Below are positions 2,465 to 50,665 of a DNA stretch of 64,000 nucleotides, in pieces; position 1 is the stretch's first letter; every line of letters starts with the position of its first letter. This DNA is from an uncultured Gemmatimonadota bacterium (lineage in GTDB: Bacteria; JAAXHH01). The stretch is from NCBI GenBank assembly GCA_951812955.1, contig OX638340.1, positions 1,312,001-1,376,000 on the forward strand, written 5' to 3'. The position numbers and the translations under genes were made by a program. The notes beneath the pieces are model-generated. The model did no database searches and was not told the DNA's origin. It saw only the letters and a program-made list of their open reading frames with translations.

Positions 2465-4402
2465 TCAATAACCGCTGTTCCCTAACCTGACACCGATGTA
2501 GCCGGTCATGCCCACGGTTCCGTATCCCAGGATTTCCTCGTACTCCGCATTGAGCAGATTGTCGATCCTTCCGAATAACTGGATGTTCGGTGTGACCTTC
2601 CAATTGGCGGCCACATTCACGATCCCGTAGCCATCCAGCGTTACCGGTGTGGCGGGCCAGGTCGAGAAGTCGTTGTCCCTTCGCTCCCCCGAAAAACGGA
2701 AACTCAGGTTCAGATCTACGCCCTGCCGTACTCGCTGATCAAGGACGATCCCGCCGCTGTGCCTCGGCCGTCTCAATAACTGCTCATCCGACTCATGGTC
2801 CTTCGAATCGGTCAAAGTATAGTAGGCACGCAGGGAAGTTCCCGCGATTCCCACATACCGTCCGGTCAACTCCAACCCCTTGCTTGTGGCCTTGAACACG
2901 TTCTTGTAACTGGATGTTTCGCTGTCCCACCCGACCATATTGTCGAAGGTATTGTCGAAATAGGTCACGCCGGCCACCAGCTTCTGATCGGCCAGGTACT
3001 GCTCCAGCCCCGCTTCCCAGCTCTTGCTGGTCCCGGCCTGGAGCGTGGAATCACCGAAGGAAGAATGCAGTTGAAACAGTGACGGCGCCTTGTAACCCGT
3101 ACCGTAGGCGCCTTTGATCCTGATTCCCGACGCTTCGAAGTACGCGTTTGGCGCGATGCTGTAGGTGACTTTAGAACCGTACCGGCTGTGATGATCGGCT
3201 CGCACGCCAAGGGTTGCAAACAGCGTATTGCCATACTGCAGCAACTCCTGCAGATAAGCACCGGTCATCCTTGCGGATCGGCGATCGAACTTGCTCGGGA
3301 ATCGGCCCCTTGATTCTGATTCTCCCTGTTCCGTTTCGGTTTCGGCGCCGAATACGAGCGTATTCCCGCCAGACAGCATCAGCGTGTTCTGCCAGTCTAT
3401 TTTGTGCAACCGCGCGTAGAACGTGGAGTTCGAAGCCGTTTCCTGGTTCTCGTCCACCGGATTGTCGTCTTCCCTGCTGTGATCGACGAGGCTATATCCC
3501 AGGGTCTGCTTCCATCGCTGCGACCACAATTCGAGGGTGGCCGAGGGACGGACAAACAGTTGCCTGGAGGAGTTTACCCGATTGGGATCGTCCCCATCGG
3601 GACCGGCTCCATTATCGATATCGGCCCGGCCATCCGTGAAACGAAACGTGAGATCGACCGAAGCATTCGCGGCGGGCGTCGCCCCGAAGCGTCCACCCAC
3701 CGTGGTGTTTCGATAGCCGTCTTCTTCCTGGTTCCCCAGGGCATTCGCTGAAATACCCCGAGCGTTCAGGAAGGAGCCGTCGATCGCATACTGGTAACTG
3801 TCCGTTCCGCCATTCAATCCCGCCCGGCTTCGAAACGTACCCAGGGCGCCGCCCTCGAAGGATGCCCCGATCTTTGGCTTACCCTCACCGCGCTTCGTAA
3901 TGATGTTCACGACCCCCGCGATGGCGTCCGACCCGTACAGTGTACTCTGGGACCCGTACAGCACCTCGATACGTTCTACCTGGTCGACGGTCAGATGCGC
4001 CGGGCTGTAGCCGCGACCCGGAGACATGGCATCGTTGACCTCGATTCCATCGATCAGAAACAGGGTGTAGGACGATTCGGCACCGCGAAGAAAAACAGAC
4101 GCGTTATTACCCGTGCCGCCAGCCTGTGCCATGCTCAAACCGCCCACGTCGCGCAGCACGCCGGCGACCGTGTTCTGGCTGCTGCGTTCGATATCGTCGG
4201 CGGTGATTACGGCGATCGAGCTCGACACCTGCCGCAAGGGTGTTTCGATTTTCGCAGCGGTTACGACAACGGCATCCAGAATGTATCTGGGTTCCTGGTC
4301 CACCGGGTCCTCCGGGTCCGGTGAATTCTGCGCAAATCCTGGCGCTGCGGACAGCAGGTAAAAACAGAGCACGGCTTTAATCGCATGTGGTATGTGTTTC
4401 AT
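2465..4402 (-). CDS. btuB: TonB-dependent outer-membrane receptor, vitamin B12 (BtuB)-like
   Basis: Signal peptide MKHIPHAIKAVLCFYLLSAAPGFAQ, a TonB-box/plug region (LDAVVVTAAKIETPL) and a C-terminal barrel ending in an aromatic residue. A cobalamin riboswitch lies directly upstream. The start is set at the internal ATG (4402), which has GGGAGG upstream. Confidence 0.85.
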   Translation of the reverse strand: MKHIPHAIKAVLCFYLLSAAPGFAQNSPDPEDPVDQEPRYILDAVVVTAAKIETPLRQVSSSIAVITADDIERSSQNTVAGVLRDVGGLSMAQAGGTGNNASVFLRGAESSYTLFLIDGIEVNDAMSPGRGYSPAHLTVDQVERIEVLYGSQSTLYGSDAIAGVVNIITKRGEGKPKIGASFEGGALGTFRSRAGLNGGTDSYQYAIDGSFLNARGISANALGNQEEDGYRNTTVGGRFGATPAANASVDLTFRFTDGRADIDNGAGPDGDDPNRVNSSRQLFVRPSATLELWSQRWKQTLGYSLVDHSREDDNPVDENQETASNSTFYARLHKIDWQNTLMLSGGNTLVFGAETETEQGESESRGRFPSKFDRRSARMTGAYLQELLQYGNTLFATLGVRADHHSRYGSKVTYSIAPNAYFEASGIRIKGAYGTGYKAPSLFQLHSSFGDSTLQAGTSKSWEAGLEQYLADQKLVAGVTYFDNTFDNMVGWDSETSSYKNVFKATSKGLELTGRYVGIAGTSLRAYYTLTDSKDHESDEQLLRRPRHSGGIVLDQRVRQGVDLNLSFRFSGERRDNDFSTWPATPVTLDGYGIVNVAANWKVTPNIQLFGRIDNLLNAEYEEILGYGTVGMTGYIGVRLGNSGY

Positions 4403-4492
4403 CTTGCCTCCCGATATGGTAGATGGTTCGGTGCCTGCAAATTGACGACGCGCATTGGGGTCCATCAGGTCGTTGATTCAGATCGATCTCCT

Positions 4493-4537
4493 TTAAATAA
4501 AAAATCCCCGTACCTGAACGTTGTCAGATACGGGGAT
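4493..4537 (-). terminator. intrinsic terminator/attenuator hairpin between the riboswitch aptamer and the btuB start
   Basis: Minus strand reads ATCCCCGTA-(16 nt)-TACGGGGAT followed by TTTTTTATTT. This is a 9-bp GC-rich stem with a U tract, placed in the 5' leader. Confidence 0.65.
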
Positions 4538-4675
4538 GCCGTTTGTCATCCTCGGAATACGGCCACTTGCAGATTACGCCCCAATGAATATACTACGGGA
4601 CAAAAACGCCTGGCGGCCGTACTTACGATTATCCATGTACACCGGACGACTTCAGTCCACGGAAGTCCCGATGAA

Positions 4676-4850
4676 AACTATGGGCAGGTCGGTCTTCTGG
4701 CTTCCGGATCGATCTACTCGCCGCGCCTTCCCATTCCCGGAGGAACAGTGGCTCGAGCACTATGGCTCTTGATGCGGTTTTCGTCCCCGGTCACAGCGAC
4801 GGGTCCGCGACGGATTCGCACCGTCTTCCCAACTTCTCACCTGCTCCTGT
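4676..4850 (-). ncRNA. cobalamin (B12) riboswitch aptamer
   Basis: Minus strand contains GGGAAGACGGTGCGAATCCGTCGCGGACCCGTCGCTGTGA (conserved core). It also contains GCCACTG...GGGAATGGGAAGGCG and the B12 box AGCCAGAAGACCGACCTGCC. Confidence 0.9.
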
Positions 4851-4851
4851 C

Positions 4852-4880
4852 AAGATAGTACCGTTTCGGGGTGAGATCAA
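4852..4880 (-). promoter_or_regulatory. putative sigma70-type promoter driving the riboswitch-btuB transcript
   Basis: Minus strand reads TTGATC-N17-TATCTT, just upstream of the aptamer 5' end. Confidence 0.4.
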
Positions 4881-5006
4881 TCGAAAACTGCGGATTACCT
4901 TAAGGTCGCAGCAAAACTGCTACGTGAGCTACTGGGAAGTGTAATCCTTGATGCGAGGGAGGATTGGTCCGGAGGCGTTCTGGAATCCGCATACAAGCGT
5001 CAATAA

Positions 5007-5762
5007 TTATGACACTTCGATAAGTATCCTGCAATGATCGCTGGGACCCCATTCTTCCGGCTTGTTCAGTGCCGTTGTTCTGATGGAATTCTTCATGCTT
5101 CGTGAAGCAAACACGTAATCCAGCTGCCTGGTGGCCGTCGCAGGTTTTTGACTGGTATGATAGTATGTGGGACCCTGGGGGCCTATCATGGGCAGACCAA
5201 TTGATGACATCCTGTCGAATACTGCTTTCTTGCGGGTCTTCCAGTATTCGTTGCTTCCATCGCCATCCATCACAGTTGTATCTCCAGCCGCGATCATCCT
5301 GAAACTGTTCTTCCTGCCTATAAGCAGCGAGATGTCCGATATGATGCGATGGATCGACGTGTCTACTAGATCACGGCTTTTAAGGCCCGATGATGGATGA
5401 TATGCCTCATACTGGGGACAGAATGACACTACATGAATCGGCCAGTCCCGGAATTTGCCTTCAAGAGGGGTCACAACGGCCGCGGACAGGCATCCCGGAT
5501 GACTGGACTGTATATCATCCAGATAACACACCTTAACCCTGTCGGATGTTTTTACTATAGCACATCTGGATCGTGCTTTGCCCCGACTATCTGGTCTAAG
5601 TGGGTCCTTTTTGTAGTATGGCGCAGGATCCACTTCAATTCTGCCAGCCACATCCTTTGGCGGTTTATAGCCTTCCTGGAGCAGGACAATATCTACGTCC
5701 AGATCAGGCAAGGATCTCCATGCCGCCCTGCGATGCCCGATATTCCAGCAGACCAGTTTCAT
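5007..5762 (-). CDS. endonuclease/exonuclease/phosphatase (EEP) family protein, copy 1
   Basis: N-terminus MKLVCWNIG, then LLQE, AAGD and C-terminal PSDHCRI, which are EEP catalytic-motif positions. Paralog of 32432..33244. The longest ORF starts at 5783, but 5762 has GGAG upstream and aligns with the paralog N-terminus. Local GC is about 48%. Confidence 0.75.
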   Translation of the reverse strand: MKLVCWNIGHRRAAWRSLPDLDVDIVLLQEGYKPPKDVAGRIEVDPAPYYKKDPLRPDSRGKARSRCAIVKTSDRVKVCYLDDIQSSHPGCLSAAVVTPLEGKFRDWPIHVVSFCPQYEAYHPSSGLKSRDLVDTSIHRIISDISLLIGRKNSFRMIAAGDTTVMDGDGSNEYWKTRKKAVFDRMSSIGLPMIGPQGPTYYHTSQKPATATRQLDYVFASRSMKNSIRTTALNKPEEWGPSDHCRILIEVS

Positions 5763-5798
5763 CCAGATCTCCAAACGGTCCATCTGAAGATCGCAGCA

Positions 5799-6179
5799 CT
5801 ATGGCTTGTCGTCAAAGTACGGAGAGCAGTTTTGTTTCCAGGCCAGCCAGGTCCGACTGCCGTCGGAAGCCACAATGACGTGATCTTTGAACTTTTCCGG
5901 TATATTGGTGATTTTGCCTTGAGGGCCTTCGCCCGTTACGAACAGATCGTCCAGCGTCGTCCTTTCATGAAACAACCTGCTCTTTCCTTCGTGCACGGCG
6001 TCCTTTATTTCTGAAATCACCTGTCTGAATTCTTCTTCTATATCATCGGTTATTGTTTCCCTTTCCGACATTGTCCTTGTCTCCTTGTAGGCTTCCCACA
6101 ACCGCTTGACATGTTTGGCATACCTAAAATACTTCGCAAGCTCCAGAAGCAGTTCGAGGTATTCGGTCATGACCTGCAA
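5799..6179 (-). CDS. hypothetical protein (126 aa), upstream partner of EEP copy 1
   Basis: ORF co-directional with the EEP gene, 15-36 nt upstream of it depending on which EEP start is used, in the same low-GC patch. No motif recognised. Confidence 0.5.
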   Translation of the reverse strand: MQVMTEYLELLLELAKYFRYAKHVKRLWEAYKETRTMSERETITDDIEEEFRQVISEIKDAVHEGKSRLFHERTTLDDLFVTGEGPQGKITNIPEKFKDHVIVASDGSRTWLAWKQNCSPYFDDKP

Positions 6180-6285: not shown

Positions 6286-7941
6286 TCACCACCTGGCGTT
6301 TAACTGCAAAATCCATCGTGTTTCGACGAGGGGAACCTTGAGTTGATCGTAGCGGGTCTGACGTGTCCGCGTATAACGCACCACGGTGGAAACGCCCGAT
6401 CCGACCGGTCCGTACAGCAGGATAACCCACCTATCGCGGCGGTTGGATCGAAATAGGGAGGTCGATTCCTCCGGCTCGGGTAACCCGGCCAACGTGTATT
6501 CCCACTGGGCGGACAGGCTGACACGGTCCCTGGACCGGTATCGCATGTACAATCGCAGATCGTGCGCGGGATTCAAACCGGACTGGCCGCGTCGCTCGTA
6601 GCGGGCCCGCCACTGGACCCGGGCGGGCAGCCGCCAGGCCATCTGACCTCGCCAGGATTCCAGCAGAACCGATCCATCAATTCTATGCGCATCCATCTCA
6701 CGGCGCCACACGCCCGAGAGTACGAGGCCGCCGTTCATTCTTCGGCGAAATCGGAAGGTGCTGCGCCGGTACAACTCCAAGTTGGTCAACCGGGGTTCAA
6801 CGCTCAGTTGCAGCGTGGTCCGGCGGTCCGGCCGCCAGCGCAGGAGCAGGCTCTGCCACGTCCGTTCGGACTTCTCGATGAACCGGGCATTCGGCTGACG
6901 GTGGATAGTCAGTCCCCCTTCCACGCGCTCCATGCTCCAGATCATGCCCCCCTGAACGGTCTGGTATCCCTCATCGTCGATGGCCATTTCACCGAACAGA
7001 TTCGTACCGCCGAAGAGCAAGTCCAGGTCCACGCCAGCACGTACGCGACCTTCCGTGTGAATGGCCGAGATACCGATCAGTCCACTGTTTCGCTTCCAGT
7101 CCAGGCGGCCCCCAGGTTCCCATTTTCCCGATGCGGTCCGTGAGAGGATCCCCGTCAGGCTATAACCTGGGCGGGCAATCCGCAGCGCCACGCCACGACG
7201 GGCGCCGGATACGTAGGTCGTTCTTACGGGTCTCAGTCCCCGGACACGGCGTTTCACGGACGCACTTAGACTGGCCGTCGAAGGCCGGATCGAATGACTG
7301 CGCCACACCAGTCCCTGGCCGAAATCCACTTCGTAGTATCCCAGGATCAACATGCGGGATGCATCCGCCTGACCCAGTTCCAGGTATCCCGACCGCCACC
7401 GGGTTTCACCGTCTCGATCCCGGCGTTCCCCCCGTCCGCCCAGTCTGAACGACCGTCCGAGTTCAATGTCCCCCTGCAGACCGAGGATGCCGTTTCCCGT
7501 CGCTTCCGGACGGTCGGTGCGGCTTCGCGACAGGCGCCCGCGACCCGCGGTTTTAAAGGTGCGGACACCGTCCGCCCGAATAAAGGGACTGATTCGGGAT
7601 ACAAGAGCCTCCGTGAAACCTGGAATTCGAACGAGTTCCCCCACGCTGGTGAAGGGGCCGAGCTTTTCACGCCAGGTGACGACGGCTCCGGCGAGCGCCG
7701 GCGTGATCCACGGCAGTTGTTCCAGCTCGGTCCGGCTGGCCCGGTTGATATCGAGCGGGTCGCGCCGCAAGGAGACCAGCAGCGCGATGTCCTCCGGATC
7801 GATGTCTGCTGCTTCCCGGTCGATCAGTGCATCAATGGAGTAGTCTGGTTCCTGCCCCGACCGTTCTTCAGGAGAGAAAATCATCATTGCTAGGTACACG
7901 GAGACCAGAATTCGCCATGCGTGGTACATGAACCGGCTCAT
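6286..7941 (-). CDS. ComEA-type helix-hairpin-helix domain fused to a predicted outer-membrane beta-barrel
   Basis: N-terminal signal-like segment, then the HhH motif region INRASRTELEQLPWITPALAGAVVTWREKLGPFTSVGELVRIPGF. About 420 aa of alternating R/G/aromatic beta-strand-like sequence follow, ending ...LQLNARW (C-terminal aromatic residue). Confidence 0.7.
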   Translation of the reverse strand: MSRFMYHAWRILVSVYLAMMIFSPEERSGQEPDYSIDALIDREAADIDPEDIALLVSLRRDPLDINRASRTELEQLPWITPALAGAVVTWREKLGPFTSVGELVRIPGFTEALVSRISPFIRADGVRTFKTAGRGRLSRSRTDRPEATGNGILGLQGDIELGRSFRLGGRGERRDRDGETRWRSGYLELGQADASRMLILGYYEVDFGQGLVWRSHSIRPSTASLSASVKRRVRGLRPVRTTYVSGARRGVALRIARPGYSLTGILSRTASGKWEPGGRLDWKRNSGLIGISAIHTEGRVRAGVDLDLLFGGTNLFGEMAIDDEGYQTVQGGMIWSMERVEGGLTIHRQPNARFIEKSERTWQSLLLRWRPDRRTTLQLSVEPRLTNLELYRRSTFRFRRRMNGGLVLSGVWRREMDAHRIDGSVLLESWRGQMAWRLPARVQWRARYERRGQSGLNPAHDLRLYMRYRSRDRVSLSAQWEYTLAGLPEPEESTSLFRSNRRDRWVILLYGPVGSGVSTVVRYTRTRQTRYDQLKVPLVETRWILQLNARW

Positions 7942-7942
7942 T

Positions 7943-8752
7943 TCAGCCGAATTCCATGGTGACAGAAAACCGGTGCGTGATGCCTAGCAGGGAGTGAGAC
8001 GACAGGGCGTAATCCGTTTTCACGCGGCCCTTTTCCAGGCCCAGGCCAACATAGAACAGTGACGGATCGGTCGTCAGACCCGCCCGGATCGTTACAACCT
8101 CGGCCAGGTGAAACTCCTGCCCCACCCTCGTGGTGTAGCCGTGGCGGGGGTGGTGGTCGAACTGGAACGAAACCGTCAGGCGGTCTCCCGTCCTGCTCAG
8201 CCCCGCCTGGATGATACGCGGATTCTCAGTTGCCGTGCCGGACTCCTTGAGAAGTGCGACGGCATGGGCCATCGCGCCGAGACGAAGTTGATACGGGAGA
8301 TCTATGAGGACACCCGCGTCCAACGCGACGGCGGAAGCGCCTTCGTAGTTTTTGACTGCAAGGCTCAATCGGCGAAGCGTAAGTCCCGCATGGAATCTCC
8401 TGCTGATGGATCGTCCGTAGGAAAGGCCGAACACACCCTCCCGGTACAACGAGCTTCCGAGACCGTGGTAGAACAGGCCGATGTGGCCCAGGACGGTAGG
8501 TGCGACACCGGAGATGGCCACCTGGGCCAGCTCTTTCATGCCGAATAGCCGCGTGTAGTGGCTCGTCAATGCGAACCGGCCGACCTGGGGCGTACCGCCC
8601 GGATTGAGGAAGGCCGCTTCGGCGTCATCCGCGACGGCTACGAAAGCGCCCGCCATGCCGACCGGCCTCGCACCGGCAAAAACTGGTTCGAATGCGCTCC
8701 AGGCCGTACCTGGAGTCAATAGCAGTAACAACAGCGGTAGTATCCGTTTCAT
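7943..8752 (-). CDS. PorV/PorQ- or FadL-like outer-membrane beta-barrel protein
   Basis: Signal peptide MKRILPLLLLLLTPGTAWS, the motif GARPVGMAGAFVAVADDAEAAFLNPGG, and a C-terminal F. Its stop is 1 nt from the downstream HhH-barrel start, suggesting an operon. Confidence 0.6.
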   Translation of the reverse strand: MKRILPLLLLLLTPGTAWSAFEPVFAGARPVGMAGAFVAVADDAEAAFLNPGGTPQVGRFALTSHYTRLFGMKELAQVAISGVAPTVLGHIGLFYHGLGSSLYREGVFGLSYGRSISRRFHAGLTLRRLSLAVKNYEGASAVALDAGVLIDLPYQLRLGAMAHAVALLKESGTATENPRIIQAGLSRTGDRLTVSFQFDHHPRHGYTTRVGQEFHLAEVVTIRAGLTTDPSLFYVGLGLEKGRVKTDYALSSHSLLGITHRFSVTMEFG

Positions 8753-8881
8753 TTGGGCTCCCATCTCGAAATGATCGACTTGTTTCTCTATTCAAAGCGC
8801 CACACTTCATCAGTCGGAAGCACATCATGAAATCTCGTTTTAGACTGCCATTAATCGGCCTGAACCCGCTCCAATCTCGTA

Positions 8882-8909
8882 TTGACTCCCACCCCTGATC
8901 CCGTATATT
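8882..8909 (+). promoter_or_regulatory. putative promoter of the tRNA-Arg pair
   Basis: TTGACT-N16-TATATT ends 11 nt before the first tRNA. Confidence 0.5.
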
Positions 8910-8920
8910 GTGGATGGTGC

Positions 8921-8994
8921 GCCCCAGTAGCTCAGTTGGACAGAGCATCGGACTTCTAATCCGAGGGTCGCAGGTTCGAATCCTGCCTGGGGTA
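8921..8994 (+). tRNA. tRNA-Arg (anticodon TCT)
   Basis: Cloverleaf folded by hand: acceptor GCCCCAG/CTGGGGT, D arm GCTC..GAGC, anticodon arm TCGGA-CTTCTAA-TCCGA, T arm GCAGG-TTCGAAT-CCTGC. Length 74 nt. Confidence 0.93.
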
Positions 8995-9054
8995 TGGGAA
9001 CCGGGCTTTCAGCGTAGTCCGCGCAGTGGTTGCGCCGGTTCCCGGTTCCCCCGT

Positions 9055-9128
9055 GCGTCCGTAGCTCAGCTGGATAGAGCAACTGACTTCGGATCAGTAG
9101 GTCGGGGGTTCGAATCCCTCCGGGCGTA
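9055..9128 (+). tRNA. tRNA-Arg (anticodon TCG)
   Basis: Acceptor GCGTCCG/CGGGCGT, anticodon arm ACTGA-CTTCGGA-TCAGT, T arm GGGGG-TTCGAAT-CCCTC. Length 74 nt. Confidence 0.93.
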
Positions 9129-9194
9129 TACATTTCATCGACATCCCCATCTGTTCATCGTTTCCAAGGCATCGATTGCCGGGAAGGAACGACC

Positions 9195-36569: not shown

Positions 36570-38087
36570 TTGACCGTCGGAGTGGTCTCAGTGAAAAGTA
36601 CCGAAATCCGTCCAATCTGGAATCCCCGTACCGGCATTGAAGGTCTTGACGGAGATCCCAATGAACTGAGTTCTTCCGAGATCCCCGGAATAAAAGCGAG
36701 CTGGACCGAGCAGCAGGAGCGGTTGAAGGACAAGGCCCAACTTTCTGACTTCACCGAGAAGTTGAGCCGGGAATGGGCAATAGAAACCGGTATTCTTGAG
36801 AATCTATACGAAATCGACCGTGGCGTCACGCAGACTCTCATCGAGCGGGGTTTTCAATCCGAAATTCTCAGCTACGGAACGACAAATAAGCCCCGAGAAT
36901 ACGTGATCCAACTCTTGCGAGATCAGAAGGAAGCCCTGGACGGCGTATTCGCGTTCGTCAAGAACGACCGGTCCCTCACTACGTCTTACATAAAAGAACT
37001 ACACGCGGCATTACTGCGCAACCAGCACACGACCGAGGCGCTCGACAGTCTGGGTAGAACAGTTGAAGTCCCGCTCCTCAAGGGAGACTGGAAAACCCAG
37101 CCCAACTACCCCGTCCGGGATGGCGTGACGTACAGCTACTGCCCGCCGGAACAGGTTAGTTCTGAGATGGACCGGTTGCTCGAGATGCATGAGGCGCAGG
37201 TCGAAAGCGGCGTGTCTGCCGAGGTACAGGCCGCTTGGCTGCATCATCGTTTCACCCAGATCCATCCCTTTCAAGATGGAAACGGACGCGTGGTCCGTGC
37301 GATCGCTTCACTGGTGCTCGTAAAGGAAGGACTTTTCCCGCTTGTGATAAGGAGGGACGACAGGGGCAGATACCTGGAAGCCCTCGAAGCCGCCGACCTC
37401 GGCGACCTGAACCCGCTTGTCATGCTGTTCACTGGACTGCAAAGAGATCAGTTCCTGAAGGCGACCAAGATATCTGAAGAACTACGTTTGGAAGAGGACG
37501 TGCAGGTAGTCTTGGACGGGCTGGACAGGGAAGCCCGCAGAATCGCAACGGAGAGGCTCAAGGCACACAGGGAGGTATTCGGTTTGGCCAGCGCTATCGA
37601 AAATGATCTAGAAGAACGTTTGAATACGATAGCAAAAGAAGTTTCGGGAGCACTAAATCAGGTAGCGTCCGGCGCAACTACATTCGTGCGAAGATCCGAC
37701 GAGAAAACGGATTATTTCTACAGGGCGCAGATCGTCAAGATTGCAAATGAACACATTGATTATTACGCCAATACGTCCGAATACCGATCATGGGTTTCAT
37801 TAAACATGCGATGGTCGCGTCGAGGGCAGTTGGTATTCGCGCTACACGGAATCGGCAAACCATTCAACGGTGGCCTTATCTGCGCGCCATTTCTGGAATT
37901 CAGAGATTACGACGATACCGACGAGGAGCACGGCGAGCGTCAATCAAATTCAACCCTCATTCCGGTCGCCGAGGAAGGTTTCGTTTTCTTCTACAACGAG
38001 GACAAGGATCGACTTCTCGGAAGGTTCAGGCCCTGGCGGGAAAACGTCCTCAAGATTGTCATAAAAGAACTCGCGCAAAACCTCTGA
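36570..38087 (+). CDS. Fic family protein (AMPylase-type) with an uncharacterised about 240-aa C-terminal region
   Basis: Fic core HPFQDGNGRVVR. The upstream TGILEN fits the inhibitory (S/T)xxxE(G/N) helix motif. TTG start at 36570, with GTG 36591 as an alternative. GC is about 52%. Confidence 0.85.
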   Translation: MTVGVVSVKSTEIRPIWNPRTGIEGLDGDPNELSSSEIPGIKASWTEQQERLKDKAQLSDFTEKLSREWAIETGILENLYEIDRGVTQTLIERGFQSEILSYGTTNKPREYVIQLLRDQKEALDGVFAFVKNDRSLTTSYIKELHAALLRNQHTTEALDSLGRTVEVPLLKGDWKTQPNYPVRDGVTYSYCPPEQVSSEMDRLLEMHEAQVESGVSAEVQAAWLHHRFTQIHPFQDGNGRVVRAIASLVLVKEGLFPLVIRRDDRGRYLEALEAADLGDLNPLVMLFTGLQRDQFLKATKISEELRLEEDVQVVLDGLDREARRIATERLKAHREVFGLASAIENDLEERLNTIAKEVSGALNQVASGATTFVRRSDEKTDYFYRAQIVKIANEHIDYYANTSEYRSWVSLNMRWSRRGQLVFALHGIGKPFNGGLICAPFLEFRDYDDTDEEHGERQSNSTLIPVAEEGFVFFYNEDKDRLLGRFRPWRENVLKIVIKELAQNL

Positions 38088-40390: not shown

Positions 40391-40588
40391 ATGAATGTCA
40401 GTAAAGAAGAAAACACCAGACTCACTCCTTCGACAGTCAAACTCAAGCGGTTAATAGGGACCTCGCCTGCTCCTCGAATGTTGACGCCATACGAAATCAA
40501 GTTGCTGCGGCAAGCCGCGAAGGAAGTGGCCGAAGTTACGGAAGAAGTCCTCGCTGAGAAAGACAGTAGTAAGGAAGAAGGATGCTGA
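40391..40588 (+). CDS. small hypothetical ORF (65 aa) overlapping the cas3 start
   Basis: ATG ORF whose stop (GGATGCTGA) overlaps the cas3 ATG by 7 nt. The tail is charged and helical-looking. No recognised motif, and coding status is unproven. Confidence 0.35.
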   Translation: MNVSKEENTRLTPSTVKLKRLIGTSPAPRMLTPYEIKLLRQAAKEVAEVTEEVLAEKDSSKEEGC

Positions 40589-43045
40589 CCTTCGAGCGGT
40601 TTTTCTCCACAGCGTTCGGTAAAGACGTTTGTCCTTTCGCCTATCAACAGGCTCTCGCAAAGCAGGCCTGGCCAGACGCGCTCATTGCTCCGACCGGCCT
40701 TGGCAAGACCGCCGCGGTGGTGCTTGGTTGGGCCTGGAAACACGCCGTAGTCGAATCTCCAACTCCACGTCGCCTCGTTTATTGCCTGCCTATGCGCACG
40801 CTCGTCGAGCAAACCGAGCGGAATGTCAGAGAATGGCTGCGTGAACTGGGCAAAGCAAATACGGACTGGAAATCACGCCTTCCGGACCCTGAAGCCGGAG
40901 TCCATGTCCTCATGGGCGGCATGGATGAGCCGCGCTGGTTTGAAACACCTGAACGACCGGCCATCCTGATCGGAACTCAAGATATGCTGATCAGCCGCGC
41001 CCTGATGCGGGGGTACGCCATGAGCCGCTTCCGCTGGCCAGTGGACTTCGCCTTGTTGCACAACGACGCGCAGTGGGTTTTTGACGAAGTGCAATTGATG
41101 GGAGCAGGCCTGGCGACCTCTACACAACTCGAAGGTTTTCGTCGTACGTTCGGAACGGAGATCCCTTCGTGCAGTCTCTGGGTGTCAGCGACCCTTCACC
41201 CGGACTGGCTACATACGGTTGATTTCCAGCAACGTCCTACGGTGTGGCGTGTTCCATGTGATTTCCCCGACGATATACATTCATCGCAAGTCCTCAAACT
41301 GATTAACGCGTGTAAGCCAATTCAGCCGTCGTCCGTCGCGCCGATGAGTGCCAAGAAGGCCGATCTGAACGCATACGCGACAGCGTTGGCGAAGGAAACC
41401 CGGAGTCTGCACCAAGAAAACAATACGACGCTTGTGGTACTCAATACAGTCGCCCGCGCCCAAGCCGTGCATAAAGCACTTCAGAAGATGGATGTTGCGC
41501 CTGCTTGCCTTGCTCTCATCCACTCGCGGTTTCGGCCTAAAGATCGCACCCGGCAGATGGACAAGTTGCCGCAAACCGGGGAAACAAAAAAACTGATCGT
41601 AGTCGCGACGCAGGCGATTGAAGCAGGTATCGATCTATCAGCGGCGGTCCTGCTCACCGAACTCGCGCCTCCTTCGTCCCTTACCCAGCGGTTCGGTCGG
41701 GTAAATCGCTACGGTGAGTTGAACGATTCCGGTGGCGGGACGGTCCGCTGGATAGATATCATCGGAGGCGACCTCGGTGATTCGTTGGCGGCTCCGTATG
41801 AGATTAACGAACTCAAAATCGGGCGCGAGCGGATTGCCGCGTTAAAGGACGCTCGGCCCTCTAATCTCGTGCCGCCCGCATCAGACGACTGCGCCTATCG
41901 GGGTGTGATACGATCCAGGGATATGCTGGACCTATACGACACCGATCCGGATTTGACCGGCTTTGATGTCGATATCGCTCCTTACGTCCGCGATGCTGAA
42001 GATACCGATATTCGAGTTTTCTGGCGCGATTTCGACGTGCAGTCTGGACCAGAGGACCAGACTGCACCCATGCGGGACGAGCTTTGTGCGGTTCCGATTG
42101 GGCGCGCGCGTAACTGGCTTAGGGATGTCAGAAAGAAGGAAGGGCAGCGGGTATTTCGCATAGACCCGCAGGCACGAGCTAATGGGAAGGGTAGCGTTCC
42201 GACTTGGACCGCGTTCCGAGAGGAACCGTGGCCGGGTTTGGTGTTGATGGTTCATGCGAGTGCTGGGGGTTATGCACCGGACACGGGGTTTGATCAGGGT
42301 CTAAAAACAGCAGTCGAGCCTGTGAAGCTAGGAGAGGAACAGCAGACGGCAGACGAGTCGAACGACGGCGATTCCGACAGCGAGCAGAGCAGGTGCGTGG
42401 AACTGACGGATCATCTGGACCACGTGGCTTTTGAAGCCAGATACCTATGCGATGGCCTCGACGTTTGTGAAGCTTGGAAAGCCACAATCCTCCAGGCAGC
42501 GTACTGGCACGACCTCGGTAAAGCACACCCTGAGTTTCAGGCGCGAATGGTTGCAAGTAACACGGAGGCCGACCCACCACCAGAAGGGTTGCTAGCCAAG
42601 GCTCCGAAGTACGACCGCACGAAAGGACGTGCATATTTCCGGCACGAACTTGCGTCTGCACTAGCATTTCTCACACAAGCAGGCTGGGTACGCAAGGCCG
42701 ATCTTGTTGCGTACCTGATAGCCGCCCATCACGGCAAGGTACGCCTGAACTTGCGTCCCCTACCAGCCGAAAGTCGGGTAATGGGGGAGGATGGACGGCG
42801 TTTTGCTCGCGGCGTGTGGGAGGGAGACGAGATACCGTTGGTTAGTTTGGGCAATGGGGAAACATGGACAGGGGGGCCACTCGCACTATCCGTGATGGAG
42901 TTAGGCGAGCATCCGGAAACTGGGGCAAGTTGGACCGAGCGTACGCGAAATTTGCTTTCCCAGTACGGTCCTTTTCAGCTCGCTTGGTTGGAGGCACTTG
43001 TACGTATCGCCGACTGGCGGGCATCAGCAAAAGAAGAACGAGGTC

Positions 43046-43062
<17 letters not shown>
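40582..43062 (+). CDS. cas3: type I-G (I-U) Cas3 helicase-nuclease with N-terminal helicase and C-terminal HD domain
   Basis: Walker A APTGLGKT, DEAD-like FDEVQLMG, and helicase C IVVATQAIEAGIDLS. HD residues sit at the C-terminus (HLDHV, WHDLGK, FRHELAS, AAHHGK). Confidence 0.9.
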
Positions 43063-46598
<3,536 letters not shown>

Positions 46599-46605
46599 GT
46601 CTCGA

Positions 46606-48240
46606 ATGTTTGCACTTACTTTCACCTTTCCTTTGGGCCGCTATCACGCAACGCCGTGGGGGCGCCATGTCAACGAAGCCGATGTCGCTTGGCCGCCAGA
46701 GCCTTGGCGCATTCTTCGTGCGCTCGTCGCTACCTACTGGCGCAAAGGCGACCGGGTACGCTGGTCCGAGGACACACTCGCCCGTCTAGTAGACGCGCTA
46801 GCCCAGGATGCGCCGATCTATCACTTGCCCCCAGGCGTGATCCACGCACATACCCGGCATTACATGCCCACACCTAAAATGACGCTCGTCTTCGACGCCT
46901 TTGCCCACTTGTCTAAAGACGAACAGATCGTAGCGGCTTGGCCAGAACTCGAATTGGACGTCGAACTATTTGATTTGGCGGCTGATCTCGCAGAGGGGCT
47001 CGGCTACCTGGGGCGTGCCGAGAGTTGGGTTGAATGCGGAACGATAACCGACTGGAACCAAGATGTGGCAAACTGCCATCCTGTGGGCCAAAATGGGACC
47101 GCCCACGGGGAGATAGTGCGAGTGCTCACACCGCTCAGTGCTCAGGATTATATGGTGGAGCGTACGCGCCTGTTGGAGGAAGTTGACGATGCAGAGCGAG
47201 ACCGCACCGCTGCTTCCGGCAAGAGACCTCCTACCCCCAGAGCCCTTGAAAGGGCACGCAACAAAGCGTTCGGGCCGACCCTTCCTGATCGTCTGGTCGA
47301 AGCCTTGATGCTCGATACGGCCGATTACCAAAAATACCGTTGGAACCGACCGCCAGCCTCACGTGAGATTGTTTATACACGTCCGCCTCTGTCCCCTGTT
47401 CCTCGCCGTGCCCGGATTCGTGCAACAGTTGATGACCGCAGACAATTCACCGTAGCGCGCTTTCTTTTGGCCGGCCGTCCCCGACCTCGTATTGAGGATG
47501 CGGTCAAGATCGGTGAACTCATGCGGCTTGCCGCGCTTTCCAAGTTTGGTTGGGAGGACAAGAGACCCAGAGCACCGTCGGTGATATCAGGCCGGGGTTC
47601 TGATGGCCGACCATTACGCAACGGCCAGCATTCGCATGCGTTTTGGTTGCCCGAGGACGCCGATGGCGATGGCTGGATTGACCATATAACGGTTTACGCA
47701 GAGGAAGGTTTCGATGTTTCAGTGCGCGAGAAGCTGGATCGACTGACCCGTTTGTGGGTCGGTGGAGACGATTCCGGTGGAGAGGAAGGAGATAAAGAGA
47801 CCGGTCGCCAAGAGTGGCGACTGGCCTTGGAGGGCTTTGGCCGCCCGGAGGACTTTGCGGACACATCAAGGCTATTTAGCTGTTCAGATGAATGGGAAAG
47901 TGTAACACCTTTTTTGGCGTCTGGTCACTTAAAAAAGGCCGGGTATGAAGGCGAGATACATCGGCTTTGGAAGCGCAGACGAGTCACATCTGGTTCGCAT
48001 ACTGAGCCTGTACAGGTCGAAATCTTGCGCCACATCGAGATTCACGGTACTCTCCGTAGAGCAGTGCATTTTCATCGATTCCGTTCACGGGGACGAGAGA
48101 AGCAACCCGACGCGCAAGGGGCCTTGCTGCGCCTGAGTTTTAACGAGCCAGTTACAGGACCCTTAGCTCTTGGATATGCCTGCCATTTTGGTCTTGGAAT
48201 GTTCGCACGCCCAATCCTAGACGCAAAATCGGAACAATGA
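46606..48240 (+). CDS. csb2: type I-G Cas5-Cas6 fusion (Csb2)
   Basis: The N-terminus FTFPLGRYHATPWGRHVNEADVAWPPEPWRILRAL is typical of Csb2. 544 aa. Confidence 0.85.
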   Translation: MFALTFTFPLGRYHATPWGRHVNEADVAWPPEPWRILRALVATYWRKGDRVRWSEDTLARLVDALAQDAPIYHLPPGVIHAHTRHYMPTPKMTLVFDAFAHLSKDEQIVAAWPELELDVELFDLAADLAEGLGYLGRAESWVECGTITDWNQDVANCHPVGQNGTAHGEIVRVLTPLSAQDYMVERTRLLEEVDDAERDRTAASGKRPPTPRALERARNKAFGPTLPDRLVEALMLDTADYQKYRWNRPPASREIVYTRPPLSPVPRRARIRATVDDRRQFTVARFLLAGRPRPRIEDAVKIGELMRLAALSKFGWEDKRPRAPSVISGRGSDGRPLRNGQHSHAFWLPEDADGDGWIDHITVYAEEGFDVSVREKLDRLTRLWVGGDDSGGEEGDKETGRQEWRLALEGFGRPEDFADTSRLFSCSDEWESVTPFLASGHLKKAGYEGEIHRLWKRRRVTSGSHTEPVQVEILRHIEIHGTLRRAVHFHRFRSRGREKQPDAQGALLRLSFNEPVTGPLALGYACHFGLGMFARPILDAKSEQ

Positions 48241-48444
48241 AACGCAGCATTTACAATGACACCTCAGTCATTGGAGTTTGTTATAGAGTTGTTTCAAGGA
48301 AGCTATAACTGTCGATCGATTCTTACATAATCTCGATGTTGTTCATACAGCCTTAAGTCGAGACGTATCCCTGGACCCACGACAGCTAAAACGTACGAAC
48401 ATTTTGCAGAACGAGTAGCCGCGAATACTTCAGCGACTCACCAC

Positions 48445-50157
48445 ATGAACCACATCCACCAACTCACGCTACCAATACCTCCGCCCCCAGTCGACGCGAA
48501 TACGCCATTGGTCCCAGCGCGCATGGTCAACGAATGGGTCTATTGCCCGCGACTGGCCTACCTGGAATGGGTTGAAGGAGAGTGGGCGGAGACGGGAGAC
48601 ACCGCCGAGGGACGGCGTACACACGTAAGGGTCGACGAAGGTGGCGGCCGTCTGCCCGGACCGGAAGAACTGGATGATGAGATGGCCCGCGCCCGGTCCG
48701 TCACGCTTTCGTCGGATCGTCTCGGCGTAATCGCCAAGATAGACGTCGTGGAAGCCGAAGAAGGAATCGTCACGCCCGTGGATTTCAAGAAAGGCAAGCG
48801 TCCCCATGTCGCCACTGGCGCCTACGAGCCCGAACGCGTCCAGATCTGCACGCAGGCCATGATCCTGGAGGACAATGGTTACAGAGTGGAGCGCGGTATG
48901 CTCTGGTACGCCGGGTCGCGTGAGCGCGTCCCGGTGATGCTTGACGATGAACTTCGATCCCTGACCCTGGCGGCAATCAGAGAATTGCGCGTCGCCGCGG
49001 CTGATGGCCGTCGGCCACCGCCTCTGGAAAACAGCCCGAAGTGCCCCCGCTGTGCCCTGGCGGGGATCTGTCTGCCCGACGAAACCAACCTGTTCCGCAA
49101 AGGGACTGCACCACGCCCGCTGAACCCATCGGATGATCCGGCCCTGCCGCTCTACGTACAGGAACCGGGGGCGCGACTGCGAAAGAGCGGTGAGCGCTTG
49201 GTGGTGGAAATCAAGGAAGAATCCGTAGAGGTACCCATAATCGACGTTTCCCAGGTCGCTCTGTTCGGCCCCGTCTCGGTGACCACACCGGCTCTGCACG
49301 CGCTGATGAACGCGGAGATTCCGGTATCGTGGTTTTCCACGGGAGGCTGGTTCCTCGGCCATACAGTAGGAACAGGGCATGGAAACGTGGCCGTTCGCGA
49401 AGCGCAATACCGCGTAGCCTTCGATAAAGGCGCTCGCCTTGCCTTCGCGCGCGATCTCGTGGCGGCTAAGGCGCGTAACGCCCGTACGATGTTGCGTCGC
49501 AACTGGCGCGTCAATATGGACGCGGAAATCAGGGATGAAGCCCTAGTCCGGCTCAGGGGAGTCGTGCGCCGCATCTCCCGCGCCACGGACGAAAGCCAAC
49601 TGCTGGGCCTGGAAGGCGAGGCCGCCGCAGTGTATTTCAACTGCTTCGAGCACATGCTTGCTAAGGATCTGGACGGCGGCGCGACGGGGTTCTCCTTCAC
49701 CAAGCGCAATCGGCGGCCTCCCACGGATCCGGTGAACGCGCTCCTGTCGCTGGCCTACGCTTTGTTGACGCGGGTATTCACTACGACCATCTCGGCGACG
49801 GGGCTCGACCCCTACATGGGCCTCTACCACCATACGCGCCACGGGCGCCCGGCGCTGTCCCTCGATCTAATGGAACCGTTCAGACCTATTGTCGCCGACT
49901 CCTGCGTTATTCAAGCCATCAACAACGGCGAAGTAAAGCTGGCCGATTTCGTGTTCAACGGGGCTGCTTGTTCGCTGAAGCCTGCTGGTCGCAAGTCCTT
50001 CATCGCCGCGTTCGAGCGGCGCATGGAGCAGGAGACCACACATCCGCTTTTCGGCTATCGCGTTTCCATGCGGCGACTTATCGAGGTACAGTCCCGATTG
50101 CTCGCCCGGCATTTTCAGGGAGAGATCGTCTCTTACCCTCATTATCTTCCCCGGTAG
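48445..50157 (+). CDS. cas1: Cas4-Cas1 fusion integrase/nuclease
   Basis: The N-terminal Cas4 part has YCPRLAYLEW and the Cys cluster CPRCALAGICLPDE. The C-terminal Cas1 part has PLYVQEPGARLRK...PTDPVNALLSLAY...GLYH. Confidence 0.9.
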   Translation: MNHIHQLTLPIPPPPVDANTPLVPARMVNEWVYCPRLAYLEWVEGEWAETGDTAEGRRTHVRVDEGGGRLPGPEELDDEMARARSVTLSSDRLGVIAKIDVVEAEEGIVTPVDFKKGKRPHVATGAYEPERVQICTQAMILEDNGYRVERGMLWYAGSRERVPVMLDDELRSLTLAAIRELRVAAADGRRPPPLENSPKCPRCALAGICLPDETNLFRKGTAPRPLNPSDDPALPLYVQEPGARLRKSGERLVVEIKEESVEVPIIDVSQVALFGPVSVTTPALHALMNAEIPVSWFSTGGWFLGHTVGTGHGNVAVREAQYRVAFDKGARLAFARDLVAAKARNARTMLRRNWRVNMDAEIRDEALVRLRGVVRRISRATDESQLLGLEGEAAAVYFNCFEHMLAKDLDGGATGFSFTKRNRRPPTDPVNALLSLAYALLTRVFTTTISATGLDPYMGLYHHTRHGRPALSLDLMEPFRPIVADSCVIQAINNGEVKLADFVFNGAACSLKPAGRKSFIAAFERRMEQETTHPLFGYRVSMRRLIEVQSRLLARHFQGEIVSYPHYLPR

Positions 50158-50162
50158 CGACT

Positions 50163-50456
50163 ATGGCCAACGAACGTCTCTACATCGTCGCCTACGACAT
50201 ATCCGAGCCAAAGCGATGGCGGCGCGTGTACAAGCTGATGAAAGGCTATGGGCACTGGTTGCAGTTGTCGATTTTCCAGTGCAGGCTCACGGCCCGGCGA
50301 CGCGCGGAAATGACCGCTCGTCTGGAGGAATCGATCGATCTGTCGGAGGACCACATTCTGATCGTGGACATGGGTCCCGCGGACAAAGTGGATCCATTGG
50401 TAGAAAGCCTGGGCAAGGCATATGAAGCGCCGACTCGAAAAGCCACCGTCGTGTAG
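50163..50456 (+). CDS. cas2: Cas2 endoribonuclease
   Basis: LYIVAYDISEPKRWRRVYKLMKGYGHWLQLSIFQC is a typical Cas2 fold sequence. 97 aa. Confidence 0.9.
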   Translation: MANERLYIVAYDISEPKRWRRVYKLMKGYGHWLQLSIFQCRLTARRRAEMTARLEESIDLSEDHILIVDMGPADKVDPLVESLGKAYEAPTRKATVV

Positions 50457-50665
50457 CCGTGCCTTTGCCGGGTCCTCCGCGAACGCTCCGGTGGAAGGGA
50501 AATGCCGGGCAGCGCTCGCGTCCTGGTATTTGTTTGTTCTGCATGGAGTTACGAGGCATTGTAACTGATTTCGGGGAGGGCGATTTGAATGTCCGTGAGA
50601 TTTTAGCAGCAGTGCTCGCAAAAGGCCTGACAAGCCTAAGTCTGCCAAAGAGTTGCTAAGGAACT
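50457..50665 (+). promoter_or_regulatory. CRISPR leader
   Basis: Non-coding 209 bp between cas2 and the first repeat. Repeat degeneration at the far end of the array supports this polarity. Confidence 0.6.

What the first reader, a model, noticed from the sequence alone, without database searches (positions are those of the whole stretch)
6286..8764. ComEA-type HhH DNA-binding domain fused to an outer-membrane barrel and operonic with a PorV/FadL-like barrel
The 551-aa protein has a signal-like N-terminus and a ComEA-style helix-hairpin-helix module. About 420 aa follow that look like an OM beta-barrel, with alternating strands and a C-terminal W. Its start codon is 1 nt after the stop of a PorV/PorQ-like barrel gene. 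Canonical ComEA is a soluble or anchored periplasmic protein. An HhH domain tethered to an OM barrel suggests a dedicated extracellular or periplasmic DNA-capture or DNA-translocation device. I do not know it as a characterised system.
Basis: partly seen in the sequence, partly recalled or inferred. Interest (0 to 1): 0.55.

Follow-up and report, generated by a model that had tools for sequence, protein, structure and literature searches.

The report
Conserved outer-membrane two-barrel gene pair
Two back-to-back genes encode a small PorV/FadL-like outer-membrane barrel and a large 24-strand barrel carrying a ComEA-like helix-hairpin-helix domain; the pair is conserved from Bacteroidota to Gemmatimonadota/Latescibacterota-labelled genomes, I found no study of it, and the residues ComEA uses to hold DNA are missing.

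Summary
Gene B (6286-7941, minus strand, 551 aa) has a signal peptide and a Pfam HHH_3 domain (aa 62-122, 52 bits). AlphaFold2 then predicts a 24-strand beta-barrel (pLDDT 86.5) whose best structural matches are the FimD/PapC ushers. Gene A (7943-8764, 273 aa) is a FadL/PorV-superfamily barrel with the N-terminal NPxG hatch motif. Its stop lies 1 nt before the start of gene B.

The fusion is the standard architecture of a large unstudied family. There are 2631 cluster representatives, and 58 of 65 sampled members carry HHH_3. The gene pair is conserved in 22 of 22 genome loci of the window's clade and in 56 of 57 Bacteroidota-type metagenome loci. No other neighbour is conserved.

The DNA-capture reading is not supported at residue level. 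Both GhG hairpins are degenerate, and the ComEA DNA-contact Lys position holds no Lys or Arg in 76 of 76 members. Many Bacteroidota members are acidic at these positions, and the curated ComEA models are not reached.

My best reading is a two-barrel outer-membrane channel complex with a periplasmic docking domain and unknown cargo. DNA remains a minority possibility of about 0.2. I found no literature on this family.

The parts
7943..8764 (-). Gene A: small outer-membrane barrel of the FadL/PorV superfamily. 273 aa from the first ATG; probably 269 aa starting at M5 (8752). Signal peptide ends ...TAWS|AFEP.
   Evidence: ORF and translation. NCBIfam PorV_fam E=1e-15 over the full length, below the curated cut-off. 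Homologues are 269 aa, and distant ones carry Pfam TraF_2, FadL and PorV domains. A family profile hits PorV 6h3i_F at E=1.4e-4.
8594..8674 (-). Gene A N-terminal hatch-like motif GARPVGMAGAFVAVADDAEAAFLNPGG (aa 31-57). It is the most conserved stretch of the gene A family and contains the NPxG motif typical of FadL/PorV hatch segments.
   Evidence: Alignment A8 of 24 orthologues from three phylum labels. The same segment aligns to PorV residues 35-82. That NPA anchors the FadL hatch is from my own knowledge.
7941..7945 (-). Junction: the gene A stop TGA (7943-7945), one spacer base (7942), then the first base of the gene B ATG (7939-7941). The arrangement suggests translational coupling.
   Evidence: Sequence read directly. 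The same 1-nt spacing is found in L002, L003 and L004. In the Bacteroidota-type locus L031 the two genes overlap by 4 nt.
6286..7941 (-). Gene B: 551-aa protein made of a signal peptide, an acidic linker, a ComEA-fold HhH domain and a 24-strand outer-membrane barrel.
7855..7941 (-). Gene B signal peptide (about aa 1-29). Cleavage is predicted just before the nearly invariant Gln30.
   Evidence: AlphaFold2 predicts a helix at aa 3-21 followed by a disordered stretch at 24-45. Q30 is nearly invariant, and most relatives have an A-x-A|Q or F-A|Q site. No signal-peptide predictor was available, so this is an inference.
7576..7758 (-). ComEA-fold (HhH)2 domain, aa 62-122. The hairpins read LPWIT and IPGFT where ComEA has LPGIG and V(T/S)GIG.
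   Evidence: Pfam HHH_3, 52 bits. PDB alignments to ComEA, EEPD1, KIF22 and PsbU. It is 50% identical to the HhH domain of a canonical SLBB-HhH ComEA, P0059, and the differences fall on the hairpins.
6289..7551 (-). 24-strand beta-barrel, aa 131-551, ending ...LQLNARW. No Pfam or NCBIfam family matches it, and no homologue has a solved structure.
7201..7323 (-). Long conserved loop between strands 5 and 6, aa 207-247. G208-Q209-G210-L211 is invariant or nearly so, and K230, R231, G235 and P238 are highly conserved. It is the family signature. I infer it is an extracellular L3-type loop folding into the pore.
   Evidence: Conservation in A1, A3 and A4. Position in the model. The in-pore location is an inference, because model coordinates could not be inspected.

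Best explanation
Genes A and B encode the two subunits of a conserved outer-membrane (OM) complex that I could not find described in the literature held here.

Gene B is exported by the Sec pathway and inserted by BAM as a 24-strand barrel. That is the strand number of the chaperone-usher pores. Its most conserved element, the GQGL-containing loop between strands 5 and 6, probably folds into the lumen as a constriction or gate. Its N-terminal ComEA-fold HhH domain hangs directly under the barrel in the periplasm.

The HhH domain keeps the ComEA scaffold but has lost the glycine hairpins and the basic DNA-contact residue. I therefore read it as a periplasmic docking or hand-over domain, comparable in role to an usher N-terminal domain, and not as a ComEA-type DNA clamp.

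Gene A is a short FadL/PorV-family barrel with an N-terminal hatch motif. It is made in coupled fashion and most likely sits against the large barrel. FadL-family barrels do this in other Bacteroidota machines, for example PorV on SprA and BamG in BAM.

Together they would form a gated channel moving a still-unknown substrate across the OM.

Shown: the gene structures, the domain folds (by prediction), family size, cross-phylum pairing, and loss of the ComEA DNA-contact signature. Inferred: physical association of the two barrels, the periplasmic position of the HhH domain, gating by the loop, and any transport activity.
For: - Barrel: AlphaFold2 mean pLDDT 86.5, pTM 0.82, 24 strands. Top structural matches are the FimD/PapC ushers, with only generic OM barrels otherwise.
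- Export signals: N-terminal signal-like helices and C-terminal aromatic residues.
- Fixed architecture: HHH_3 is found in 58 of 65 members, and the HhH residue N66 is invariant in 76 of 76.
- Family size: 2631 cluster representatives at E<=1e-3 and 1001 at E<=1e-10.
- Pairing: a gene A orthologue lies immediately upstream on the same strand in 22 of 22 genome loci of the window's clade, and in L002-L005.
- Pairing in Bacteroidota-type metagenome loci: 56 of 57 loci with at least 1 kb upstream, and 13 of 15 partial loci.
- The gene A profile scores these orthologues at E=1e-30 to 1e-46 but scores true PorV only at E=1e-4, so gene A is a dedicated subfamily.
- Nothing else in the neighbourhood is conserved: purE in 17 of 80 loci, otherwise variable.
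- Coupling: 1-nt spacer or 4-nt overlap.
- HhH divergence: read against PMC9747964.
- Precedent for FadL-family barrels as partners of larger OM machines: PorV in 6h3i and BamG in PMC12611786.
Against: - No experiment bears on this family.
- No complex model could be made, so contact between the two barrels is inferred only from conserved adjacency.
- The cargo is unknown, so 'channel' rests on size and architecture alone.
- Two loci lack the adjacent partner (L001 and L066).
- A ComEA-fold domain next to a wide and net-basic barrel is also what a DNA conduit would look like (family mean about +18).
Confidence: 0.45

Rival explanations
1. One reading: a DNA-uptake or DNA-capture device. dsDNA passes the 24-strand pore. 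The tethered ComEA-like domain catches it at the periplasmic exit and hands it on to soluble ComEA and ComEC. This would give these bacteria, which often lack the PilQ secretin route, a pilus-independent OM step for transformation or for feeding on DNA.
For: - The barrel is wide (24 strands) and net basic: +33 in the window protein, family mean +18, and a crude lumen-facing estimate of +14 in the window and +7 as the family mean.
- How DNA crosses the OM in P. gingivalis is stated to be unknown (PMC11532111).
- In one Bacteroidia locus the gene sits next to a bifunctional-nuclease-domain gene and a NupC-type nucleoside transporter (L001).
- Some canonical high-GC ComEAs also carry Leu at the 'critical Lys' position (P0059 and T. 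thermophilus 2duy). That single argument is therefore not absolute.
Against: - Both GhG hairpins are lost. The second Gly is T/S/N in hairpin 1 (G in 2 of 76) and D/T/S in hairpin 2 (G in 3 of 76, D in 42 of 76).
- The Lys column holds 0 of 76 Lys/Arg. The compensating Arg seen in high-GC ComEAs is Ala in the window and Arg in only 8 of 76 members. Acidic residues follow hairpin 1 in 28 of 76.
- The curated ComEA HMM cut-offs are missed by a wide margin.
- One tethered domain cannot act as the multi-copy ratchet or condensate described for ComEA (PMC9747964, PMC13168374 abstract).
- The OM DNA route proposed so far in Bacteroidota is a TonB-dependent transporter with a DUF5689 lipoprotein (PMC8459023, PMC12478041). 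The HhH proteins shown to be needed for transformation look like canonical ComEAs: RA0C_RS02645 has its HhH at aa 236-301, and PGN_0421 matches COG1555 at E=6e-21 over aa 94-165.
- No competence, nuclease or nucleoside gene is a conserved neighbour.
Confidence: 0.2
2. Envelope-architecture or OM-homeostasis module with no cargo. The big barrel is plugged by its conserved loop. The HhH domain tethers the OM to a periplasmic or peptidoglycan-associated partner. The FadL-like partner handles a lipid or other hydrophobic molecule through its lateral opening, as canonical FadL proteins do.
For: - The pair is very widespread in Bacteroidota-type metagenome contigs and sits among housekeeping genes (purE, TolC, POT transporter, sulfatase), which fits a core envelope role.
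- HhH folds are used for protein-protein contacts outside the cytoplasm in PsbU and GspK. Both families are weakly matched here.
- Canonical FadL proteins transport hydrophobic molecules through a lateral opening (PMC12611786).
Against: - A 24-strand barrel is an expensive way to build an anchor.
- The strongly conserved glycine-rich loop looks more like a pore-lining or gating element.
- There is no peptidoglycan-binding or lipid-binding domain signature.
Confidence: 0.2
3. Accessory of the type IX secretion/sorting system. Gene A would be a PorV paralogue that shuttles a subset of T9SS cargo to, or from, the gene B barrel.
For: - The nearest named relatives of gene A are PorV/PorQ family proteins.
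- In this work the family was found only in Bacteroidota and in MAGs labelled Gemmatimonadota or Latescibacterota, that is, within the FCB group where T9SS occurs. The T9SS distribution is from my own knowledge.
Against: - Scores are far below the PorV, PorQ and PorV2 equivalog cut-offs: 17-26 bits against 220-325.
- No T9SS gene is a conserved neighbour.
- Gene A is about 100 aa shorter than PorV.
- Recent T9SS shuttle and structure papers do not mention an HhH barrel.
Confidence: 0.1

Closest known systems
ComEA (periplasmic or membrane-anchored competence DNA receptor; Pfam HHH_3, TIGR01259/TIGR00426)
   Same: It has the same compact two-HhH fold without a connector helix. The window domain is 30% identical to G. 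stearothermophilus ComEA and 50% identical to the HhH of a canonical SLBB-HhH ComEA. It is also located outside the cytoplasm.
   Different: It is fused to a 24-strand OM barrel, whereas ComEA is a small soluble or anchored protein. The GhG hairpins and the DNA-contact Lys/Arg are absent across the family, and the curated ComEA models are not reached.
PorV/PorQ and the wider FadL family (T9SS shuttle PorV on the SprA translocon; BamG in the Bacteroidota BAM complex)
   Same: Gene A shares the N-terminal hatch motif and the C-terminal strands with PorV. Like PorV and BamG, it is paired with a much larger OM barrel (PMC12611786; 6h3i).
   Different: It forms a separate orthologous subfamily of about 270 aa, against about 380-400 aa for PorV. 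It scores below the PorV_fam cut-off. Its partner is unrelated to SprA or BamA, and there is no T9SS context.
Chaperone-usher pores FimD/PapC
   Same: They are the best structural matches and have the same strand number (24). The overall layout is also alike: an N-terminal periplasmic domain, then a large barrel with an internal insertion.
   Different: Identity is only 10-12%, and no usher, plug or C-terminal-domain families are detected. The insertion lies between strands 5 and 6 on the inferred extracellular side, not in a periplasmic plug. There are no chaperone or pilin genes nearby.
TonB-dependent DNA transporter pair of Bacteroidota (RA0C_RS04915/04920; DdbC/DdbD)
   Same: It is a two-gene OM module, and it is the only OM DNA route proposed so far in this phylum (PMC8459023, PMC12478041).
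   Different: That system is a 22-strand TonB-dependent transporter with a plug plus a surface lipoprotein. Gene B has no Plug domain or TonB box, and its partner is a barrel, not a lipoprotein.
General porins with an L3 constriction loop
   Same: A long, glycine-rich, highly conserved loop after strand 5 is the family signature.
   Different: This protein has 24 strands, not 16-18. There is no evidence of trimer formation, and it carries an extra periplasmic domain.

Membership tests
ComEA | Two-HhH (HHH_3-type) fold | tested here: met
ComEA | Reaches the curated ComEA family models (TIGR01259 comEA, TIGR00426 ComEA HhH repeat region) | tested here: not met
   36.1 bits against 152.35, and 31.3 bits against 53.1. 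Bacteroidota orthologues score 21-24 bits.
ComEA | GhG hairpins and the conserved DNA-contact Lys (K166 in G. stearothermophilus, K63 in V. cholerae) | tested here: not met
   The hairpins read WIT and GFT, and the Lys position is Leu83. The family columns hold 0 of 76 Lys/Arg at the Lys position, and G in only 2 of 76 and 3 of 76 at the second Gly of each hairpin (PMC9747964). Caveat: some high-GC ComEAs also carry Leu at this position.
ComEA | Small soluble periplasmic or membrane-anchored protein | tested here: not met
   The domain is fused to a 420-aa barrel.
ComEA | Binds dsDNA and is required for transformation | not testable with these tools
   This needs EMSA and genetics.
PorV/PorQ family (FadL superfamily), for gene A | Match to the NCBIfam PorV_fam model above its curated cut-off | tested here: not met
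   E=1e-15 over the full length, but 58.1 bits against 90. Orthologues score 61-75 bits. This supports superfamily relatedness but not family membership.
PorV/PorQ family (FadL superfamily), for gene A | N-terminal hatch segment with the NPA/NPxG motif | tested here: met
   GARxxGMAGAxVAxxDxxxxxxxNPAG is the most conserved block of alignment A8, and it aligns to PorV residues 35-82.
PorV/PorQ family (FadL superfamily), for gene A | 14-strand barrel with a lateral opening | not tested
PorV/PorQ family (FadL superfamily), for gene A | Works with T9SS components or CTD cargo | tested here: inconclusive
   No T9SS gene is a conserved neighbour in 80 loci. Whole-genome co-occurrence could not be examined.
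Chaperone-usher pore | 24-strand barrel | tested here: met
Chaperone-usher pore | Usher sequence families (N-terminal domain, plug, C-terminal domains) and adjacent chaperone and pilin genes | tested here: not met
   No such Pfam hits even at E<=1. The neighbours are unrelated.
TonB-dependent transporter | Plug domain and TonB_dep_Rec barrel family | tested here: not met
   There is no Plug or TonB_dep_Rec hit for gene B. The neighbouring ORF 2465-4465 does have both.

The most novel reading that the evidence does not exclude
The pair is a pilus-independent and secretin-independent outer-membrane DNA conduit of Bacteroidota and related phyla. dsDNA enters through the 24-strand, positively charged pore. 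A divergent, built-in ComEA-like domain receives it at the periplasmic mouth, and the PorV-like partner assists gating. This would be the missing OM step of natural transformation or eDNA feeding in these phyla.
Probability: 0.17. Interest if true: 0.85.

Novelty: new variant of a known kind. Interest (0 to 1): 0.6.

Why it matters
OM machines of Bacteroidota have repeatedly turned out to differ from the proteobacterial textbook versions (T9SS, BAM, TamL).

This gene pair is very widespread in Bacteroidota-type contigs and extends to MAGs labelled Gemmatimonadota or Latescibacterota. It encodes a pore as large as an usher. Its barrel has no Pfam family, no solved structure, and no paper that I could find.

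If it is a translocon, it is a major unassigned route across the OM of a phylum that dominates gut and marine communities. If the DNA reading proves right after all, it would supply the missing OM step of transformation in these bacteria.

The study also gives a concrete caution: a confident 'ComEA-like HhH' domain hit does not imply DNA binding.

Tried and rejected
- **Repeat word-index search.** A second search with the family alignment returned the same 59 proteins and wasted a capped search.
- **Locus scans with divergent alignments.** A narrower alignment, A6, was used for genomes, and a Bacteroidota-type alignment, A7, for metagenomes.
- **AFDB fold search.** The library was not available.
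- **First AlphaFold2 run.** With 23 mostly close sequences it gave only pLDDT 60.6. It was replaced by the 76-sequence run.
- **Downstream EEP-family ORF (5007-5783) as a partner nuclease.** Rejected. It has no signal peptide, is below the Pfam cut-off, has no PDB relative, lies in a lower-GC stretch, and is absent from syntenic loci.
- **Conserved small ORF downstream of gene B.** Rejected. The small ORFs in L003 and L004 have no counterpart in the window.
- **TonB-dependent receptor at 2465-4465 as part of the unit.** Rejected. It is present in L003 but absent in L004 and in Bacteroidota loci.
- **Published HhH competence proteins as family members.** I asked whether R. anatipestifer RA0C_RS02645 and P. 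gingivalis PGN_0421 belong to this family. Their reported domain positions and E-values fit canonical ComEAs better.
- **Net charge of the HhH domain.** It does not discriminate, because G. stearothermophilus ComEA itself is -2.
- **Promoter and terminator scan.** It found nothing usable for the operon on the minus strand.
Full report
**1. What is in the sequence**

On the minus strand, ORF 7943-8764 (gene A, 273 aa) is followed by ORF 6286-7941 (gene B, 551 aa). The junction reads TGA-a-ATG, so one base separates the stop from the start. Close homologues of gene A are 269 aa, which points to Met5 (8752, MKRILPLL...) as its real start. Two tRNA-Arg genes lie just upstream on the opposite strand (8921-9129).

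**2. Gene B**

Pfam finds one domain, HHH_3, at aa 62-122 (E=6.4e-14, 52 bits, gathering score 27). The remaining roughly 430 aa match nothing in Pfam or NCBIfam even at E<=1.

A first AlphaFold2 run on 23 mostly close sequences was mediocre (pLDDT 60.6). With a 76-sequence alignment spanning the whole family, the model reached pLDDT 86.5 and pTM 0.82. It shows these elements:
- a signal-like helix at aa 3-21;
- a disordered acidic linker;
- four HhH helices at aa 49-120;
- after only about 8 residues, 24 long beta-strands from aa 131 to 550.

With an even strand number, the N-terminal domain should be periplasmic. This is an inference. The family ends in an aromatic residue, W in the window and F in most members.

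**3. Gene A**

NCBIfam PorV_fam matches over the full length (E=1e-15) but stays below the curated cut-off (58 bits against 90). Distant homologues carry Pfam TraF_2, UPF0164, FadL/Toluene_X or PorV domains.

An alignment of 24 orthologues shows a strongly conserved N-terminal block, GARxxGMAGAxVAxxD...NPAG. A profile of that alignment picks F. johnsoniae PorV (6h3i_F) as the best PDB hit (E=1.4e-4), aligning the same block and the C-terminal strands.

Gene A is therefore a short member of the FadL/PorV superfamily, but not PorV, PorQ or PorV2. The equivalog models score 17-26 bits against cut-offs of 220-325.

**4. The fusion is a large family**

The word-index search found only close relatives, plus one 706-aa Bacteroidia protein that aligns end to end. 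These relatives are MAGs labelled Gemmatimonadetes or Latescibacterota, several from sponge-type bins.

An exhaustive profile search with the barrel part alone found 2631 cluster representatives at E<=1e-3 and 1001 at E<=1e-10. Most are 650-740 aa, with the barrel starting near residue 190-230. [quoted passage not shown]

HHH_3 is detected in 58 of 65 sampled members, and the HhH residue Asn66 is invariant in 76 of 76.

The family signature is G-[DY]-[YF]-x4-G-Q-G-L at the end of strand 5, together with the roughly 40-residue loop that follows. I infer that this loop is an L3-type constriction or gate.

**5. The pair is conserved across phyla**

In the window's own clade the 269-aa and 551-aa genes keep the 1-nt spacing, while their neighbours change (L002-L004).

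A genome scan gave 22 loci with gene B identity ranging from 92% down to 30%. A gene A profile finds an orthologue directly upstream on the same strand in all 22. It also finds one in the 41%-identical Latescibacteria-type locus L005.

Among those 80 loci:
- 56 of 57 loci with at least 1 kb upstream carry the gene A orthologue immediately upstream (E mostly 1e-30 to 1e-46);
- 13 of 15 loci with partial upstream sequence carry it too.

Start and stop are 14 nt apart in L050 and overlap by 4 nt in L031.

Clustering all flanking ORFs shows no third conserved gene. purE is upstream in 17 of 80 loci, and otherwise the flanks hold TolC, a POT transporter, a sulfatase and so on. The exceptions without an adjacent partner are L001 and L066.

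The unit is thus exactly two genes, almost always together. This is the strongest evidence that the two barrels work together.

**6. Does the HhH domain bind DNA?**

The scaffold is clearly ComEA-like: 50% identity to the HhH of a canonical SLBB-HhH ComEA, P0059. The differences fall on the functional positions:
- LPGIG becomes LPWIT in hairpin 1.
- (S/T)GIG becomes PGFT in hairpin 2.
- Across 76 members, the second Gly of hairpin 1 is T/S/N (Gly in 2).
- The second Gly of hairpin 2 is Asp in 42 members (Gly in 3).
- The residue after hairpin 1 is Asp or Glu in 28 members.
- The position of the Lys whose mutation abolishes DNA binding and transformation holds no Lys or Arg in any of the 76. 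This is K166 in G. stearothermophilus, K164 in B. subtilis and K63 in V. cholerae (PMC9747964). Here it is Gln in 50 members, Leu in 15, and Leu83 in the window.

There is one caveat. P0059 and T. thermophilus ComEA also have Leu at that position, with an Arg three residues later. That Arg is Ala in the window and Arg in only 8 of 76 members.

The curated ComEA models are missed by a wide margin. The same fold serves in protein-protein contacts in PsbU and GspK, and both are weakly matched here. Net charge of the domain is uninformative.

The barrel is net basic (+33 in the window, family mean +18). A crude estimate of lumen-facing residues is positive (+14 in the window, +7 as the family mean). 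This is compatible with an anionic cargo but proves nothing.

**7. Literature**

No paper in the held library describes an HhH-barrel fusion or this gene pair.
- Natural transformation in R. anatipestifer needs a TonB-dependent transporter plus a DUF5689 protein, and an HhH protein with its domain at aa 236-301 (PMC8459023).
- The related DdbCD pair imports DNA for catabolism in Bacteroides (PMC12478041).
- P. gingivalis needs PGN_0421, which matches COG1555 at E=6e-21 over aa 94-165. Its OM step is stated to be unknown (PMC11532111).

These HhH proteins look like canonical ComEAs and not like members of this family, but I could not obtain their sequences to check.

FadL-family barrels acting as partners of bigger OM machines have precedents: PorV on SprA, and BamG in the Bacteroidota BAM complex (PMC12611786).

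**8. Verdict**

This is the window's copy of a very widespread two-barrel OM module for which I found no published study.

My best explanation (confidence 0.45) is a gated 24-strand channel with a periplasmic, non-canonical HhH docking domain and a FadL/PorV-type partner barrel, with unknown cargo. The rivals are:
- non-transport envelope role: 0.2;
- T9SS accessory: 0.1.

I file it as a new variant of a known kind, namely OM barrel complexes with a FadL/PorV-family partner. It fails the defining tests for ComEA, PorV, usher and TonB-dependent transporter membership.

Noticed in passing
window 40582-53000: A CRISPR-Cas locus. It holds Cas3 (helicase plus HD, 40582-43062), two large ORFs with no Pfam match (42998-45652, 884 aa; 46606-48240, 544 aa) and a Cas4-Cas1 fusion (48445-50157). 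A CRISPR array follows at about 50666-52997, with the 36-37-nt repeat ATTTCCGGGGCTGCGCAGCCCCGGCCTCATTGAAGC and a period of about 73 nt. The effector genes are unassigned.
   Followed up: partly
window 53341-57492 (+): A 1383-aa protein with Big_2/Big_1 Ig-like domains, a long leucine-rich-repeat region and a weak M66-peptidase segment. Eukaryote-like repeat proteins of this sort are typical of sponge symbionts (my own knowledge), which fits the sponge-type MAG names of the closest relatives.
   Followed up: no
window 5007-5783 (-), inside the lower-GC stretch 4001-6000: An endonuclease/exonuclease/phosphatase-like ORF (Pfam E=1.9e-4, below the cut-off) with no signal peptide and no PDB relative. 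It lies in a stretch with GC 0.53 against about 0.60 around it, and it is absent from the syntenic loci L003 and L004. It is probably an insertion unrelated to the barrel pair.
   Followed up: partly
window 8882-9129 (+): Two tRNA-Arg genes (anticodons TCT and TCG) lie 60 nt apart. A sigma-70-like promoter (TTGACT-16-TATATT) sits 12 nt upstream of the first. They are divergent from gene A.
   Followed up: no
L001 4051-8121: In one Bacteroidia MAG the HhH-barrel gene has no adjacent PorV-like gene. It lies head-to-head with a bifunctional-nuclease-domain (BFN_dom plus UVR) gene that is followed by a NupC-type nucleoside transporter. This is a single anecdote in favour of a nucleic-acid link.
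   Followed up: no
L006/L007 4139-4960: The gene A orthologue matches over a 274-codon stop-to-stop frame (E=1e-22). The first ATG/GTG/TTG is only at codon 94 (4418), so the gene is called as 181 aa. This could be an unusual start codon, a sequencing error or a decaying gene.
   Followed up: partly
L014 3137-3996: In this locus the gene A orthologue is split into two overlapping ORFs (3137-3574 and 3319-3996), which suggests a frameshift or an assembly error.
   Followed up: no
window 36570-38087 (+): A 505-aa Fic/DOC-family protein, in a stretch of lower GC (about 0.55-0.57 between 32 and 48 kb) next to the CRISPR-Cas locus. This may be a defence or mobile island.
   Followed up: no
window 6289-7551 (gene B barrel): The barrel is extremely rich in arginine in the window's clade: 70 Arg against 5 Lys in 421 aa, net charge +33. 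Bacteroidota orthologues are less basic (family mean +18).
   Followed up: partly
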